64,000 nt of DNA from an uncultured Alphaproteobacteria bacterium (GTDB taxonomy: Bacteria > Pseudomonadota > Alphaproteobacteria > RF32 > CAG-239): the NCBI GenBank assembly GCA_947588655.1, contig CANPYS010000001.1:6391-70390 (forward strand), given 5' to 3'. Below are positions 28,103 through 34,562 of the stretch, one piece after another (the stretch's first letter is position 1; every line of letters begins with the position of its first letter). The position numbers and the translations under genes were made by a program. The notes under the pieces were generated by a model. The model worked only from the letters and a program-made list of their open reading frames with translations. It ran no database searches and had not been told where the DNA came from.

Positions 28103-29029
28103 ATGAAGTACGTTTTAATTTTAATAGCAATTTTGTTTTCAAGTCAGGCGGTGGCGCTGAATTGTGAAAAGCAACCAACCTGCGAGGAGTTAAATTATTC
28201 CAAGGAAGACGATCCTCAATGTGCTGAGGACGGTTATATTCTCTGTCCGTTTGACTTTTCCTATAAAAAATGTTTACAGCCTGATTGTGAAAAATTAGGC
28301 TTTACACAATCGGATAAATCATTATGGTGCAATGAAATTGCTTCCTGTCCGTTCAACGCCTCTTACACGCTTTGTAATCGCAAAGCCGTGCAATGTAAGG
28401 TTGGCGATGTGTATTACGCAGATGACACTTGCGGTTCTTCCAATAATCTGGACACTACTAAAATTCCGGTCGGCGTTGTGTTTTATGTGACAGCTGACGG
28501 ACGTCACGGTCGCGTTTTGGCTTTTGATGAGTTCCAAGGAGCCTACAGCGCAATGAATTCAATCAGCGCCGCCTTACCTTTGTTTACCTGTGAACAAGTG
28601 TTGGACGGTTTGAAAAAAGGAAATCCGGATTTATATGATGGTCAAGCGCAAACCCAAAAAGTTGCCGCGCTTGATTCGCAAAGTGCCGCCGCCAAAGCTC
28701 TTGAATATTATCCTCAAGAAATTGACCCTGATACACCTTACACCGGCAAAGGAAACTGGTATTTGCCAACACTTGGCGAGTGGGAGTGGCTTTATGACCA
28801 TGAATTTATAGACAAATGCCCGATTTCATCAGGTGGAAATAATTACGCCAACATTCCTATTGTACCTGTCTTAAAAAAGCTTGGAAAGAGCGGCATGCGG
28901 ACAGACCGTTTTTGGTCGATTAACTTATTTTCATCTAAACAAGCGCTTTATTTTGGCACCACTTACGGGGATATAGATTCCAAACTTCTGCTTTATCAAT
29001 ATTATATTCGTCCGATTATGAAATTTTAA
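28103..29029 (+). CDS. secreted Cys-rich paralog P2
   Basis: First ~95 aa about 90% identical to P1. Divergent middle. C-terminal WYLPTLGEWEWLY, FWSINLF and ...YYIRPIMKF. Confidence 0.8.
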   Translation: MKYVLILIAILFSSQAVALNCEKQPTCEELNYSKEDDPQCAEDGYILCPFDFSYKKCLQPDCEKLGFTQSDKSLWCNEIASCPFNASYTLCNRKAVQCKVGDVYYADDTCGSSNNLDTTKIPVGVVFYVTADGRHGRVLAFDEFQGAYSAMNSISAALPLFTCEQVLDGLKKGNPDLYDGQAQTQKVAALDSQSAAAKALEYYPQEIDPDTPYTGKGNWYLPTLGEWEWLYDHEFIDKCPISSGGNNYANIPIVPVLKKLGKSGMRTDRFWSINLFSSKQALYFGTTYGDIDSKLLLYQYYIRPIMKF

Positions 29030-29072
29030 GCGGATGAGCAGATTTTTTTCTTCCTTACGATTGTAAAATGAA

Positions 29073-29107
29073 TTTTCCCGATTACTTTTTATGAAAAATC
29101 GGGAGAA
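29073..29107 (+). promoter_or_regulatory. possible RBS-sequestering hairpin in the adiC leader
   Basis: TTTTCCCGATT (29073-29083) pairs with AATCGGGAGAAAA (29097-29109). The GGGAG Shine-Dalgarno lies in the 3' arm, 5 nt before ATG 29110. Confidence 0.35.
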
Positions 29108-29109
29108 AA

Positions 29110-30588
29110 ATGATGGATGAAAAAAATAAAATCGGTCTTCTACCGGCAACTTTGATGGTTGCCGGCAATATGATGGGTTCAGGTGTGTTTATGTTACCTG
29201 CCAATTTGGCGGGCATCGGGAGCATTGCCATTTTCGGGTGGTTGATTACCGTTGTGGGCGCTATTTGTTTGGCGCTTGTCTTTTCCAAACTGACGCAAAT
29301 TTATCCGGCGGCGGGCGGTCCTTATGCCTATGCCAAAAAAGCGTTCGGTAATTATATGGGTTATCAGACAAACTTGGTTTATTGGCTTGCCAATGTGGTT
29401 GGCAATGTGGGGCTTGCCGTGGCGGGACTCGGCTATTTAACAACTTTTTTCCCCACGCTTAAAGATCCGCTTGTCATGGCGTTTGCGCAAATTGCCGTCA
29501 TATGGTTTTTTACTTATGCCAATATTTTAGGTCCGAATGTGGTTGGCCGTTTGCAAAGTATGACCACCATTTTAGCCTTAGTTCCGATTATCGGTATGGC
29601 GCTTTTGGGCTGGTTTTGGTTTCATGCCGATACGTATATGCAAGGTTGGAATGTGACCGGTAAGAGCGATCTGACGGCTATTGGGATGACGCTTAATTTT
29701 ACGCTTTGGGCGTTTATCGGTGTGGAAAGCGCTTCCGTTTCAACGGCGGTGGTGAAAAACCCCACCCGCAATGTGCCGATTGCAACAGTTGCCGGTGTGA
29801 TTTTAGCCGCTGTTTGTTATGTTTTGAGCTCCAGCGCGATTATGGGCATTATTCCGAGCTCAGAGCTGATGTCTTCTTCCGCGCCGTTTTCGCAAGCGGT
29901 TGCCGTTGCCCTTGGTCCGACAGCCGGCGATATTGTGGCGGCATGCGCCGCGATCGGTTGTCTTGGTTCGCTCGGCGGTTGGACGCTTTTGGTCGGGCAG
30001 ACGGCAAAAGCCGCCGCTGATGACGGTTTGTTCGGGCGCGTGTTTGCCTGCACCAACAGCAAGGGCGTGCCGGCTTCCGGCTTGGCTATTGTCGCCGGCA
30101 TTATGACATTGCAGGTTTTGGCAACCATGTCGCCGACTGCCTCGGAGCAATTTGGCAAAATTGCTTCCATTGCCGTGATTTTGACCTTATTGCCTTACAT
30201 TTATTCTTCGGTGGCAATTAAGATTATCGGGCGCGATAAAATAGATGCTAAGCAAGGCGTGTTTTATACGGTTGTCGGCTTAATCGGTGCTTTTTATTCC
30301 ATGGCGGCAATGATTGGTTCTGATCCGGCGCAAACCCGTTGGGCTTTGATGTTTGTGATTGCTACCATTATCTTTTATGAATTGGCGGAAGAGCGTCAAT
30401 GGGCGATGGGCGAGAACCCCGAAGGCATTAAATGTATTGTGCCATCATGGGTGCGTCATTTAACTTTGCTTGTGACCATTTTGGCGCTTGTTGTTATGTT
30501 TTGGATTTCGTTTGGCGAAAACAGCGCGCTTATTCACCGCACCAAGAGCCACTTTCCGGTGGTTGAACAGCTTGAAAATTTGAGTTAA
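29110..30588 (+). CDS. adiC: arginine:agmatine antiporter-like APC-family transporter
   Basis: Long near-identical blocks to E. coli AdiC: [77 protein letters not shown]. Confidence 0.75.
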   Translation: [492 protein letters not shown]

Positions 30589-30602
30589 GAAAGGAGTGAG
30601 AA

Positions 30603-32900: not shown

Positions 32901-33042
32901 CCGCTCATCTAGAGGCGTTTTTACGGGTCTCGGGAAATTCACGTACCTCTTTTGTACGCTGGAATTTCCCTCGCCCTTAAAACACCTCTATCTAAACGGT
33001 TCTCCGCCTTTCCACGGCTTGGGAGAAAATTAAGAAAACGTC

Positions 33043-33078
33043 CATTTCAAAATGGACGTTTTTTGTTTTTGTGCTTAC
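33043..33078 (+). terminator. rho-independent terminator after adiA (repeat copy also at 42757-42790)
   Basis: AAAACGTCCATTTCAAAATGGACGTTTTTTGTTTTTG. Confidence 0.7.
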
Positions 33079-33109
33079 GAATAAAAAAATCAAGTAAAAT
33101 CAAAGAAAT

Positions 33110-33377
33110 GTCTCAAAAAAACGTACGTCATTATTTACAACTTGTCAAGTGAAAAAAATTGGGTTTTTCAATAACTTATTTTTGCAAAAAAATGCACAAA
33201 AAAACGTACGTTTTTTTGAGATAGGGAAAAACTTTCTCTCAAACGTCATGCTGAGCTTTGGTGCGTTAGCACCATTCGCGAAGCATCCAGGAACAGTATA
33301 GCTAATTTGTTGTCCTGGACTCTTCGCCTGCAGCTCAGAGTGACGATTCGGCAGAGTTCGTAATTAAGGAGAAAAAA
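33110..33377 (+). promoter_or_regulatory. degenerate copy of the upstream cassette (copy for P3)
   Basis: Retains AAACGTACGTTTTTTTGAGA core, GTCATGCTGA, TGACGATTCGG and TAAGGAG. Central hairpins replaced. Confidence 0.55.
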
Positions 33378-34562
33378 ATGAAGTATGTTTTATTTTTGAT
33401 GTTGGTATTGTTTTCAAGTCAGGCGGTGGCGCTTAATTGTGAAAGGCAACCGACTTGTGAAGAATTGGGTTATTCTACGCAAAATAATCCAAACTGTTTA
33501 GATGACGGTTATTTAATTTGCCCGTTTGATTCTAATTATAAGAAATGCGTCAACTTTAGTTGCGAATCGCTCGGGTTTACGCTATCCGATAAATCGGGCT
33601 GGTGCGCTGAAACAATAGAATGTAAAGGTGATAAAAGTTATACTCTTTGCAAAACATCTTGTATTGCTTGGGATTCTGATACGCTTTCCATGCTTGCCGA
33701 ATCGGGCAAATGTAAGCTCATCACGATGAAAAATGACATCACGCTTTCAGAAGATAAGCTCAACGTTTCCGCAAACACCATGATTGACGGTGGTGGGCAT
33801 ACGCTTCATGTGTCGGCGAATATAAACCCGATAGATTTACAAGCGAACAGCGGTCTCAAAAATCTTAACTTGGATGTAAAGGGTACCGGCGTTAAACAAG
33901 GTTATATTCTTCTTCCGCAAGGTAATGGAGTTCTCTTTGAAAACCTGACGGTTGCGGTTTCTGGCATGACACAAAAATATAATGCAGGGCTTGTTGGTAT
34001 GTCAAATTTTTCTGCCGAATTTAGAGGTCAAACAAATCTGAATTCAAATTATTATAGTGTCTTTTTCAATAGTGATCATATTAACTTTACAAATGCGCAA
34101 GCCACTCTTTTTGCCGCTAATGATTTAATGAAAAGTTCCAACGTCACACTTCACAATTCCACACTTGATATTACAATGAGTACTGTTCTCATGACGCGCT
34201 CTAAATTAACGCTTTACAATTCCACACTCCATTTTACAGGCACACATTTGTTCTGGACAGGAAGTTCAACGGTAGAAAATGTCTTGACAATCGGGGAGGG
34301 TTCCACCGCGGTGATTAAAGTTTCAAACGGTCTGAATATGGAAAGTACTAGAAAATCAAATTTTGTGTTAAGCGGGACAGCAGATGCGCCAGCAAAGTTA
34401 GAAATTACGACACCTGATAAAAATAATAATGAAACATATATCACAGCTCATAACATAACGGATACGCTTGTCTTAAATAACAAGACATATCATCCAACGC
34501 AAACAGCTACAACGCTTATATCGGATGTTCCAAACTCAAGTTATTGGCGCGCTGTGCCATAG
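33378..34562 (+). CDS. secreted Cys-rich paralog P3: conserved N-module fused to parallel beta-helix-like C-terminal domain
   Basis: N-terminal 95 aa homologous to P1/P2/P4/P5 (NCERQPTCEELGYS...CPFD..YKKC). Remainder has repetitive NxT/beta-strand periodicity (LHNSTLDIT..., LYNSTLHFT...) and lacks the DUF1566 motifs. Confidence 0.7.
   Translation: MKYVLFLMLVLFSSQAVALNCERQPTCEELGYSTQNNPNCLDDGYLICPFDSNYKKCVNFSCESLGFTLSDKSGWCAETIECKGDKSYTLCKTSCIAWDSDTLSMLAESGKCKLITMKNDITLSEDKLNVSANTMIDGGGHTLHVSANINPIDLQANSGLKNLNLDVKGTGVKQGYILLPQGNGVLFENLTVAVSGMTQKYNAGLVGMSNFSAEFRGQTNLNSNYYSVFFNSDHINFTNAQATLFAANDLMKSSNVTLHNSTLDITMSTVLMTRSKLTLYNSTLHFTGTHLFWTGSSTVENVLTIGEGSTAVIKVSNGLNMESTRKSNFVLSGTADAPAKLEITTPDKNNNETYITAHNITDTLVLNNKTYHPTQTATTLISDVPNSSYWRAVP

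What the first reader, a model, noticed from the sequence alone, without database searches (positions are those of the whole stretch)
28103..34562. GC-rich adiC-adiA arginine acid-resistance pair embedded inside the tandem paralog array
The array P1-P2-[adiC-adiA]-P3 is interrupted by a 3.8-kb segment (29110-32900). Long stretches of this segment are visibly GC-richer (for example 29880-30080) than the ~40% GC surroundings. The antiporter matches E. coli AdiC over long identical blocks and the decarboxylase is AdiA-like (wing + PLP fold-I). The order antiporter-then-decarboxylase, without adiY, is shared with cadBA but not with E. coli adiA-adiY-adiC. Downstream lie the repeat families (33043-33078 terminator, 32926-32990 element) that recur next to nifJ and P4, so the insertion point is in repetitive DNA. 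Together with hdeD (52820-53389) this gives the organism an arginine-dependent extreme-acid survival kit, consistent with passage through a host stomach or an acidic niche, and it was probably acquired horizontally.
Basis: partly seen in the sequence, partly recalled or inferred. Interest (0 to 1): 0.55.

Follow-up and report, generated by a model that had tools for sequence, protein, structure and literature searches.

The report
Inherited arginine acid-resistance operon, flanked by insertions
The two genes are an ordinary arginine-import and arginine-decarboxylase pair that this uncultured gut alphaproteobacterium inherited at this chromosomal site from its ancestors; the repeated secreted-protein genes around it are the later insertions.

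Summary
adiC (29110-30588) and adiA (30603-32900) form a tight operon between the paralog genes P2 and P3. The segment is the GC-richest 3.8 kb of the window (0.481 against 0.411).

The horizontal-transfer reading does not hold. In six related loci the same upstream block, spoU / hypothetical / hexapeptide transferase / alpha-beta hydrolase, runs directly into adiC-adiA with no P genes. One relative also has folA-thyA-nifJ downstream. So the pair is ancestral here, and P1, P2 and P3, with their palindromic repeat elements, were inserted around it.

adiC and adiA are as similar to the relatives' copies (77-87%) as the syntenic neighbours are (58-86%). Their trees agree, with the gut alphaproteobacterial clade supported at 99-100% bootstrap. 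Their GC and GC3 track each host genome (r about 0.9). In codon usage they group with nifJ, the [FeFe]-hydrogenase and metG. The 0.65-GC peak comes from an Ala/Gly-rich transmembrane segment.

The function (arginine/agmatine exchange plus proton-consuming decarboxylation) is inferred from homology. The "hdeD" is only a DUF308 protein. Ordinary; low interest.

The parts
25019..25768 (+). alpha/beta hydrolase gene. It is the upstream synteny anchor: in related species it lies directly upstream of adiC.
   Evidence: Pfam Abhydrolase/Peptidase_S15. It is 79-86% identical to its counterparts in L001, L003, L081 and L082, where it is the gene next to adiC.
26544..27593 (+). P1: secreted protein with a signal peptide, a 10-Cys N-terminal module and an Lcl_C-like C-terminal domain. 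Lineage-specific insertion with its own terminator at 27601-27620.
   Evidence: Paralog alignment A1. Sub-threshold Lcl_C hit. Only 79 homologues found among 5.8 billion proteins. Absent from the syntenic site in relatives. Terminator.
28103..29029 (+). P2: a paralog of P1 with a C-type-lectin-like (Lcl_C) C-terminal domain. It was inserted about 30 nt upstream of the conserved adiC upstream block, and no terminator is predicted between it and adiC.
   Evidence: AlphaFold model with pLDDT 81 matches the Bacteroides fimbrial protein 4eps (E 4e-6) and the Legionella Lcl C-terminal domain 8q4e (E 2e-4). No terminator on the + strand in 29029-29110.
29059..29109 (+). Conserved adiC upstream block: TTGTAA, 16 nt, TACTTT (promoter-like), then the Shine-Dalgarno sequence GGGAG. 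It is the retained part of the ancestral hydrolase-adiC intergenic region.
   Evidence: Alignment with 8 relatives shows the ATTGTAAA...GATTAnTT...GGAG block conserved. A hairpin UUUUCCCGAUU/AAUCGGGAGAA covers the SD in the window and its three nearest relatives, but not across the clade.
29110..30588 (+). adiC: arginine/agmatine antiporter of the APC superfamily. It is a long form with a 13th hydrophobic helix at residues ~445-467. The real start is probably the second ATG, at 29113.
   Evidence: NF007929 676 bits (cut-off 574). PDB AdiC E 7e-148. 13 of 17 E. coli substrate-binding or gating residues are identical. The C-terminal extension is shared with all non-enterobacterial relatives.
30603..32900 (+). 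adiA-like PLP-dependent (fold-I, wing-domain) decarboxylase, most likely arginine to agmatine. An AAGGAG ribosome-binding site lies 7 nt upstream, and adiA starts 14 nt after the adiC stop.
   Evidence: Pfam wing, major and C-terminal domains. NF011603 is the best family at 939 bits (below its cut-off of 1167). Best PDB matches are AdiA. The PLP lysine is Lys392, in S-T-H-K. The tree places it in the Adc clade.
32900..33000 (.). Palindromic intergenic repeat element (~100 nt hairpin). It starts at the adiA stop codon and belongs to the repeat family found beside nifJ and P4.
   Evidence: Fold -39 kcal/mol, z -6.6. Related copies at 42596-42700, 43085-43160 and 44518-44573.
33033..33064 (+). 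Intrinsic terminator hairpin followed by a T-run. It ends the adiCA transcript, and an identical copy follows nifJ.
   Evidence: 14-bp stem plus T-run. Exact copy at 42754-42781.
33105..33377 (+). P3 leader, containing the long hairpin (33110-33222) that all P cassettes share.
   Evidence: Repeat families D1 and D6. Fold z -5.7. Hairpins at 26304-26408, 27859-27963 and 42950-43053 give sub-threshold Rfam matches typical of long hairpins.
33378..34562 (+). P3: same signal peptide and Cys-rich module as P1/P2, but with a right-handed beta-helix C-terminal domain. Lineage-specific insertion downstream of adiA.
   Evidence: Alignments A1 and A7. AlphaFold model with pLDDT 76 matches the L. reuteri SRRP adhesin 5nxk (E 2e-3) and pectate lyases. 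Absent from relatives' loci.
36695..42560 (+). folA, thyA, SDR and nifJ: the downstream synteny anchor.
   Evidence: Pfam DHFR_1, Thymidylat_synt, adh_short. L002 has folA (75%), thyA (86%) and nifJ (93%) 7 kb downstream of its adiA.

Best explanation
adiC-adiA is a two-gene operon that this uncultured, gut-associated alphaproteobacterium inherited vertically. It sits at its ancestral chromosomal site, between a spoU / hexapeptide-transferase / hydrolase block and the folA-thyA-nifJ region.

Inferred mechanism, from the E. coli and Salmonella AdiA/AdiC paradigm: AdiC imports arginine in exchange for agmatine. AdiA decarboxylates arginine and consumes one cytoplasmic proton per turnover. The cycle therefore raises internal pH and generates membrane potential.

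The operon keeps its own conserved upstream block and ends at an intrinsic terminator. What is new in this lineage is the surroundings. Cassettes of a small secreted Cys-rich protein family were inserted upstream (P1 and P2, lectin-like) and downstream (P3, beta-helix). Each cassette carries a hairpin-rich leader and palindromic elements.

The moderately high GC of the pair is a property of the genes themselves: conserved Ala/Gly-rich membrane segments, and the codon usage typical of core genes. It is not a foreign signature.

Shown: gene identities, synteny, phylogeny, composition. Inferred: substrate, direction of transport, physiological role.
For: Synteny. L001, L003, L081 and L082 carry spoU(-), hypothetical(-), hexapeptide transferase(-), hydrolase(+), adiC, adiA with 98-900 nt between hydrolase and adiC and no P gene. 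L004 and L083 show the hydrolase directly upstream of adiC. L002 carries folA-thyA-nifJ downstream.

Divergence. adiC is 81-87% and adiA 77-81% identical to those relatives. The syntenic neighbours are 58-86% identical.

Trees. In both the AdiA and the AdiC tree the same 12 gut alphaproteobacterial sequences form a clade (bootstrap 99 and 100). The window falls in the same 9-member subclade in both (100 and 100).

Composition. adiC/adiA GC and GC3 correlate with flanking GC across 10 relatives (r 0.89-0.90). In a 70%-GC betaproteobacterium they fall below the flanks. On RSCU PC1 they sit with nifJ, the [FeFe]-hydrogenase, metG and thyA. The real outliers are the type III restriction-modification genes at GC 0.31. 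The 0.65-GC peak has GC1 0.66 and GC2 0.63, and 43% of its residues are Ala/Gly/Pro/Arg.

P genes elsewhere. In other genomes P-family genes sit at other sites, after a PBP1 gene. In the window they are bounded by repeats 91-97% identical between copies.

Function. adiA follows adiC after 14 nt, with a strong ribosome-binding site.
Against: adiA is below NCBI's equivalog cut-off (939 against 1167 bits) and only 47.5% identical to E. coli AdiA.

The Adc clade contains at least one enzyme with lysine specificity (Burkholderia sp. AIU 395; PMC6257575). Close decarboxylase relatives pair with PotE-type antiporters. So arginine specificity rests mainly on the AdiC partner.

The segment is nominally the GC-richest of the window.

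At deep level the Adc family is patchy and strongly affected by horizontal transfer (PMC6257575), and the outgroups here are a taxonomic mixture. An ancient acquisition by the ancestor of the clade cannot be excluded.

No expression or physiological data exist.
Confidence: 0.8

Rival explanations
1. One reading: adiC-adiA is a recently acquired, GC-rich foreign segment that landed in repetitive DNA inside a pre-existing tandem paralog array.
For: It is the GC-richest 3.8-kb segment of the window (0.481 against 0.411). It is flanked by paralogs and repeat elements. The Adc family is known to move horizontally (PMC6257575).
Against: The same site holds adiCA, and no P genes, in six related loci. 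Divergence is proportional to that of the neighbours. The two gene trees agree and nest inside the clade. GC and GC3 track each host. Codon usage is typical of core genes. There is no integrase or transposase. The adiC upstream block is conserved with relatives right up to the P2 stop codon.
Confidence: 0.04
2. Ancient horizontal acquisition. The pair entered the common ancestor of this gut alphaproteobacterial clade from another phylum or class and has been inherited vertically since. This is compatible with the best explanation for the window itself.
For: The sister groups in both trees are a mixture: Synergistaceae, Terriglobia, Desulfovibrionaceae, Beta- and Gammaproteobacteria, and other Alphaproteobacteria, all at about 60-64% identity. 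The literature describes Adc as patchy and heavily affected by horizontal transfer.
Against: The trees do not resolve a donor. Other Alphaproteobacteria (Dongia, Ensifer, Ancylobacter, Pseudodonghicola) carry the same long-form pair, so vertical descent within the class is not excluded. No compositional trace remains.
Confidence: 0.35
3. The module is real, but its main role is not survival of extreme acid. It may conserve energy (electrogenic arginine/agmatine exchange building proton-motive force in a fermentative anaerobe) or supply agmatine and polyamines. Alternatively, the decarboxylase may prefer another basic amino acid.
For: The organism carries a pyruvate:ferredoxin oxidoreductase and an [FeFe]-hydrogenase, so it looks like a fermentative anaerobe. 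The pair is conserved across colon, caecum and rumen lineages. Substrate shifts occur inside the Adc clade, and some members pair with PotE-type antiporters. There is no adiY-type acid or anaerobiosis regulator. The 'hdeD' is not an HdeD orthologue.
Against: The antiporter passes the AdiC equivalog cut-off and keeps 13 of 17 arginine-binding or gating residues, including Tyr74, Tyr93, Glu208, Trp202 and Trp293 (E. coli numbering). No agmatine-catabolic genes lie in the window. Proton consumption and membrane-potential generation are two faces of the same cycle, so these roles do not exclude each other.
Confidence: 0.2

Closest known systems
E. coli / Salmonella arginine-dependent acid resistance system (AR3): adiA-adiY-adiC
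   Same: It has the same two protein families. The antiporter is AdiC-type (51% identity, above the NF007929 cut-off). The decarboxylase is a wing-domain, fold-I PLP enzyme closest to AdiA (47.5% identity, PLP lysine conserved). The expected chemistry is the same: arginine in, agmatine out, one proton consumed.
   Different: The gene order is antiporter then decarboxylase, as a tight operon, with no AraC-type adiY. AdiC carries a 13th predicted transmembrane helix. AdiA falls below the equivalog cut-off. The host is an uncultured anaerobic gut alphaproteobacterium.
Long-form adiC-adiA pairs of Burkholderia, Pseudomonas nitroreducens, Ensifer, Dongia, Synergistaceae and others (uncharacterised Adc-clade loci)
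   Same: The long AdiC form is shared (66-73% identical, alignments reach residue ~480-490), as is the AdiA-like decarboxylase (60-65%). Many of these loci have the same antiporter-then-decarboxylase order.
   Different: Other members of the same decarboxylase clade have the opposite gene order or are paired with PotE-type antiporters instead. None of these loci has been characterised, to my knowledge.
cadBA (lysine/cadaverine) and speF-potE (ornithine/putrescine) modules
   Same: The design is the same: an APC antiporter plus a wing-domain decarboxylase. cadBA also has the antiporter first.
   Different: The window proteins are clearly closer to AdiC and AdiA. The antiporter scores 676 bits for AdiC against 382 for CadB and 353 for PotE. 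The decarboxylase scores 939 for AdiA against 646/604 for the lysine decarboxylases and 432 for ornithine decarboxylase. The trees separate them.
P. aeruginosa LdcA subfamily (PMC6257575)
   Same: A wing-domain decarboxylase of the lysine/arginine group.
   Different: The window protein groups with the Adc clade, not with LdcA (43.6% identity; 666 bits against 840 for AdiA).

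Membership tests
AdiC arginine/agmatine antiporter (NCBIfam NF007929; APC superfamily) | Whole-protein score above the curated equivalog cut-off, and higher than for the sister antiporters | tested here: met
   676 bits against a cut-off of 574. CadB 382, histidine/histamine 377, PotE 353. 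In the tree, E. coli AdiC groups with the window clade to the exclusion of CadB (bootstrap 90).
AdiC arginine/agmatine antiporter (NCBIfam NF007929; APC superfamily) | Substrate-binding and gating residues of E. coli AdiC (residue list recalled from the structural literature) | tested here: met
   13 of 17 are identical: N22, S26, G27, Y74, Y87, Y93, A96, N101, W202, I205, E208, W293, Y365. The changes are I23M, C97N, M104L and S357A.
AdiC arginine/agmatine antiporter (NCBIfam NF007929; APC superfamily) | 12-TM topology of the E. coli protein | tested here: inconclusive
   The core aligns over the 12 TM helices. A ~55-residue C-terminal extension contains one more hydrophobic helix (residues ~445-467, Kyte-Doolittle 1.9). 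The extension is shared by all non-enterobacterial relatives.
AdiC arginine/agmatine antiporter (NCBIfam NF007929; APC superfamily) | Arginine:agmatine exchange activity | not testable with these tools
   Needs a proteoliposome or whole-cell transport assay.
AdiA biodegradative arginine decarboxylase (NCBIfam NF011603; Adc group of wing-domain decarboxylases) | Whole-protein score above the curated equivalog cut-off | tested here: not met
   939 bits against a cut-off of 1167. It is still by far the best family (LdcC 646, CadA 604, ornithine decarboxylase 432).
AdiA biodegradative arginine decarboxylase (NCBIfam NF011603; Adc group of wing-domain decarboxylases) | Wing, PLP (fold I) and C-terminal domain architecture, with the PLP lysine in S-T-H-K | tested here: met
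   PF03709, PF01276 and PF03711. Lys392 aligns with E. coli Lys386 in STHK.
AdiA biodegradative arginine decarboxylase (NCBIfam NF011603; Adc group of wing-domain decarboxylases) | Phylogenetic placement in the Adc group rather than with LdcI/LdcC, LdcA or ornithine decarboxylases | tested here: met
   In the neighbour-joining tree the window clade and other long-form pairs group with E. coli AdiA. LdcA, CadA and SpeF fall outside. PDB bit scores: 840 (AdiA), 666 (LdcA), 529 (LdcI), 332 (ornithine decarboxylase).
AdiA biodegradative arginine decarboxylase (NCBIfam NF011603; Adc group of wing-domain decarboxylases) | Arginine specificity and acid-dependent activity or oligomerisation | not testable with these tools
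   Substrate shifts inside the Adc cluster are documented (Burkholderia sp. AIU 395 lysine decarboxylase; PMC6257575). An enzyme assay is needed.
Enterobacterial adi locus (adiA-adiY-adiC) | An AraC-type regulator adiY between the genes, with the decarboxylase first | tested here: not met
   The window has adiC then adiA, 14 nt apart, with no regulator nearby. E. coli layout.
Horizontally acquired genomic island | Absent from the corresponding site in close relatives | tested here: not met
   Present at the same site in L001, L003, L004, L081, L082 and L083.
Horizontally acquired genomic island | Composition or codon usage atypical for the host | tested here: not met
   +1.5 to +2 SD in GC, but equal to nifJ, the hydrogenase, thyA and nrdR. 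Codon-usage distance from the window pool is among the lowest. It groups with core genes on PC1, and GC tracks host GC in relatives.
Horizontally acquired genomic island | Mobility genes or an integration signature belonging to the segment | tested here: not met
   No integrase or transposase was found in the ORFs scanned. The flanking repeats belong to the P cassettes and recur at nifJ and P4.
HdeD acid-resistance membrane protein (NF007577) | Score above the equivalog cut-off | tested here: not met
   31 bits against a cut-off of 189. Only Pfam DUF308 repeats are present.
Lcl_C / DUF1566 C-type-lectin-like domain (PF07603), for P1, P2 and P4 | Pfam gathering score, or fold match to the solved Lcl C-terminal domain | tested here: inconclusive
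   Sequence scores are 13-16 bits against a cut-off of 34.9. Several family members carry precomputed PF07603 hits. The P2 model matches 8q4e (E 2e-4, TM 0.60 normalised to the target) and 4eps (E 4e-6).

The most novel reading that the evidence does not exclude
The arginine/agmatine module, with its 13-helix AdiC variant, may be a conserved core bioenergetic or pH-homeostasis device of this uncultured clade of anaerobic gut Alphaproteobacteria. In this species, insertion of the terminator-less lectin-like adhesin gene P2 about 30 nt upstream of the adiC upstream block may have coupled expression of a host-binding surface protein to the arginine/acid response through read-through. An SD-sequestering leader hairpin may add translational control in place of AdiY.
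Probability: 0.1. Interest if true: 0.45.

Novelty: new member of a known kind. Interest (0 to 1): 0.15.

Why it matters
This is mainly a correction. A GC bump and flanking repeats looked like a horizontally acquired island. Comparative synteny shows the opposite polarity: the acid-resistance operon is resident, and the repeats and paralogs are the newcomers.

Biologically it adds a modest point. Several species-level lineages of an uncultured gut and rumen alphaproteobacterial clade keep a long-form adiC-adiA operon at a fixed chromosomal site. This suggests that arginine decarboxylation matters for their life in, or passage through, the digestive tract.

The more unusual material in the region is the small, clade-restricted family of secreted Cys-rich proteins (lectin-like or beta-helix). 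These spread as cassettes with hairpin-rich leaders.

Tried and rejected
- **Exact look-up of the window AdiA:** nothing on record. The organism was placed only through homologues.
- **Rfam scan of 25000-45500:** only a tRNA passed its threshold. There is no riboswitch or known leader upstream of adiC or the P genes, and the microRNA-precursor 'hits' merely reflect long hairpins.
- **SD-sequestering hairpin upstream of adiC:** it is strong in the window and in L093, L081 and L082, with one compensatory C-G to U-A change. However, RNAalifold found no consensus structure. The clade-wide SD pairing probability (0.63) equals that of control genes (0.60). I did not adopt it as a feature.
- **Shared 3' ends of adiA and nifJ:** both end in ...CGTATAACC, at the start of the palindromic element. 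AdiA C-termini vary by 1-3 residues among relatives, so this is not interpretable.
- **Tree artefacts:** two high-GC sequences in the AdiA tree (Burkholderia Bp9142 and the betaproteobacterial MAG) were extracted in the wrong frame and should be ignored. Their antiporters are correct.
- **Literature search on the gut 'RF32' Alphaproteobacteria:** nothing specific on arginine decarboxylation. I use the clade name only as a guess.
- **Agmatine catabolism:** no such genes were found in the window.

Full report
**1. What is there**

The region holds five + strand ORFs: P1 (26544-27593), P2 (28103-29029), a 492-aa permease (29110-30588), a 765-aa decarboxylase (30603-32900) and P3 (33378-34562).

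- **The permease.** It is an APC-family transporter (PF13520). It scores 676 bits against NCBI's arginine/agmatine antiporter equivalog (cut-off 574), far above CadB, PotE or the histidine/histamine models. Its best solved relatives are the AdiC structures (E 7e-148). It is 51% identical to E. coli AdiC. It keeps 13 of 17 substrate-binding or gating residues, including Tyr74, Tyr93, Trp202, Glu208 and Trp293 in E. coli numbering.
- **The decarboxylase.** It has the wing, fold-I PLP and C-terminal domains. The PLP lysine lies in S-T-H-K. It matches biodegradative arginine decarboxylases best: 840 and 819 bits, against 666 for P. aeruginosa LdcA, 529 for LdcI and 332 for ornithine decarboxylase. 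It stays below NCBI's AdiA equivalog cut-off (939 against 1167).
- **The junction.** adiA starts 14 nt after the adiC stop, behind an AAGGAG ribosome-binding site. An intrinsic terminator follows at 33033-33064.

**2. Composition**

The 3.8-kb segment has GC 0.481, against 0.411 for the rest of the window. It is nominally the richest 3.8-kb window, but the nifJ region and the hydrogenase region both reach 0.475.

- **By gene.** adiC (GC 0.491, GC3 0.525) and adiA (0.476, 0.480) lie 1.5-2 SD above the 50-gene mean. They share that range with nifJ (0.477, 0.497), the [FeFe]-hydrogenase (0.497, 0.508), thyA (GC3 0.561), nrdR and metG.
- **Codon usage.** On the first axis of a codon-usage PCA they sit among those core genes. 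Their scaled chi-square distance from the window's pooled usage is among the lowest. The true outliers are the type III restriction-modification genes at GC 0.31.
- **The local peak.** It encodes an Ala/Gly-rich conserved membrane segment ([47 protein letters not shown]), so it is driven by amino-acid composition.

**3. Relatives**

The exact AdiA sequence is not on record. The closest homologues (99%, then 81% and below) all come from metagenomes. A scan of GTDB representative genomes names them as uncultured Alphaproteobacteria from human gut, roe-deer colon and caecum, goat rumen and yak reticulum. The next tier, at 60-65% identity, is Burkholderia, Pseudomonas, Dongia, Ensifer, Synergistaceae and others.

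- **Upstream synteny.** L001, L003, L081 and L082 carry the window's upstream block: spoU(-), hypothetical(-), hexapeptide transferase(-), alpha/beta hydrolase(+). There it is followed directly by adiC-adiA, and no P-family homologue is detected. L004 and L083 show the hydrolase directly upstream of adiC.
- **Downstream synteny.** L002 has folA, thyA and nifJ 7 kb downstream of adiA, as in the window. The window therefore keeps both ancestral flanks. P1 and P2 are extra DNA between the hydrolase and adiC, and P3 is extra DNA after adiA.
- **The retained intergenic piece.** The last ~50 nt before adiC are conserved with the relatives: ATTGTAAA, 16 nt, GATTAnTT, then GGAG. The P2 stop codon lies about 30 nt upstream of that block.
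- **Same species.** A second assembly, GCA_947630965.1, also has P2-adiC-adiA-P3-M15 peptidase. The insertions therefore predate divergence within the species and postdate the split from the ~80%-identity relatives.

**4. Tests of horizontal transfer**

- **Divergence.** Identity to the relatives is 77-87% for adiC and adiA and 58-86% for the syntenic neighbours.
- **Trees.** Neighbour-joining trees of AdiA and AdiC recover the same 12-member gut alphaproteobacterial clade (bootstrap 99 and 100). Both also recover the same 9-member subclade containing the window (100 and 100), with matching internal groupings.
- **Composition across hosts.** Over ten relatives, adiC/adiA GC and GC3 follow the flanking GC (r 0.89-0.90). 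GC3 ranges from 0.29 in a 0.34-GC host to 0.61 in a 0.49-GC host. In a 0.70-GC betaproteobacterium the genes are below their flanks. That is the pattern of a long-resident, strongly constrained gene, not of a recent import.
- **Deeper history.** It remains open. The outgroups are a taxonomic mixture, and Carriel et al. (PMC6257575) describe the Adc group as patchy and heavily affected by horizontal transfer.

**5. The paralogs and repeats**

- **The proteins.** P1-P4 share a signal peptide and a ~75-residue module with ten cysteines. Only 79 homologues were found among 5.8 billion proteins. Some of these carry Lcl_C (PF07603) hits, and P1, P2 and P4 give consistent sub-threshold Lcl_C matches.
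- **Predicted folds.** A P2 model (pLDDT 81) matches a Bacteroides fimbrial protein (4eps, E 4e-6) and the Legionella Lcl C-terminal domain (8q4e, E 2e-4). A P3 model (pLDDT 76) is a right-handed beta-helix resembling the L. reuteri SRRP adhesin and pectate lyases, with weak E-values of 2e-3 or worse.
- **The cassettes.** Each gene comes with a repeated leader containing a ~105-nt hairpin, and with ~100-nt palindromic elements. The 28-nt core of the terminator hairpin after adiA recurs exactly after nifJ, within a 39-nt repeat that is 97% identical.
- **Other genomes.** Elsewhere, family members sit at other sites, for example after a PBP1 gene, singly or in tandem.

Together with section 3, this makes the P cassettes the mobile or expanding component.

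**6. Function and mechanism**

By homology, the operon should import arginine in exchange for agmatine and consume one proton per decarboxylation. That raises cytoplasmic pH and builds membrane potential. This is inference. Three caveats apply:

- The decarboxylase is below the equivalog cut-off.
- A lysine-specific enzyme sits inside the Adc cluster.
- Closely related decarboxylases are paired with PotE-type antiporters in Pseudomonas and some Burkholderia.

The AdiC partner is the main support for arginine. Whether the physiological role is gastric-passage survival, mild-acid homeostasis or energy conservation in a fermentative anaerobe cannot be decided here. The window carries a pyruvate:ferredoxin oxidoreductase and an [FeFe]-hydrogenase. 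The supposed hdeD is a DUF308 protein at 31 bits against a cut-off of 189 and adds nothing.

**7. Comparison and verdict**

The pair works like the enterobacterial AR3 system. It belongs to the widespread but uncharacterised long-form adiC-adiA loci of non-enterobacterial bacteria. In these, the antiporter-then-decarboxylase order without adiY is common, and AdiC carries a 13th predicted helix.

It is a new member of a known kind. The functional reading is supported by homology. The claim of an insertion acquired by horizontal transfer is not supported and is in fact reversed. Interest is low.

Noticed in passing
window 25990-29029, 32900-34562, 42596-44680: The P genes behave as cassettes. 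Each has a repeated ~270-500-nt leader with a ~105-nt near-perfect hairpin (26304-26408, 27859-27963, 33110-33222, 42950-43053). Each also has ~100-nt palindromic elements (32900-33000, 42596-42700, 43085-43160, 44518-44573). P4 is bracketed by 91%-identical direct copies (42596-42651 and 44518-44573), and sequence upstream of P1 (26091-26157) recurs downstream of P4 (44597-44662). How they spread is unknown.
   Followed up: partly
window 26544-27593, 28103-29029, 33378-34562, 43385-44506: This is a small, clade-restricted family of secreted proteins (79 homologues found). A shared N-terminal module with ten cysteines is fused either to a C-type-lectin-like Lcl_C domain (P1, P2, P4) or to a right-handed beta-helix (P3). 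They are plausible host- or glycan-binding surface proteins of an uncultured gut alphaproteobacterium.
   Followed up: partly
window 30430-30588 (AdiC residues ~430-492): AdiC carries a ~55-residue C-terminal extension with a 13th hydrophobic helix. The extension is conserved in all non-enterobacterial AdiC relatives examined (Burkholderia, Pseudomonas, Ensifer, Synergistaceae and others) and absent from E. coli AdiC. It would place the C-terminus on the opposite side of the membrane.
   Followed up: partly
window 29065-29112: The hairpin UUUUCCCGAUU/AAUCGGGAGAA sequesters the adiC Shine-Dalgarno sequence. It is also present in L093, L081 and L082, with one compensatory C-G to U-A change. It is not conserved across the clade, and pairing is no stronger than in control genes.
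   Followed up: yes
window 8767-12689 (- strand): Type III restriction-modification genes (ResIII helicase and N6/N4 methylase) have GC 0.31-0.32 and GC3 0.25-0.30. They are the real compositional and codon-usage outliers of the window and better candidates for horizontal acquisition.
   Followed up: no
L015-L022, L028, L030, L037, L044, L045, L056-L080 (except L058, L062, L063): Adc-clade decarboxylases 61-64% identical to the window protein sit next to PotE-type antiporters (53-68% identical to E. coli PotE) rather than AdiC-type ones. This occurs in many Pseudomonas and in some Burkholderia and Paraburkholderia. Their substrate is an open question.
   Followed up: no
L093 7502-12913 (GCA_947630965.1): A same-species assembly shares P2-adiC-adiA-P3-M15 peptidase. 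It then carries umuC/umuD-like, WYL, RNase T and DnaB_C genes where the window has peroxiredoxin and greA. This is a strain-variable, possibly mobile segment.
   Followed up: no
window 45105-45180 (- strand) and 13256-13332 (- strand): tRNA-Lys(TTT) lies about 600 nt downstream of the P4 cassette. tRNA-Val(TAC) lies just downstream of the low-GC restriction-modification genes.
   Followed up: no
window 32885-32905 and 42545-42565: adiA and nifJ both end in ...CGTATAACC (protein tails RKGV* and RKDV*), exactly where the palindromic element begins. This may be chance, or the element may have replaced the last codons.
   Followed up: partly
window 6218-8755: An autotransporter with Chlamydia-PMP-type repeats. 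Another large one lies in L093 (13262 onwards).
   Followed up: no
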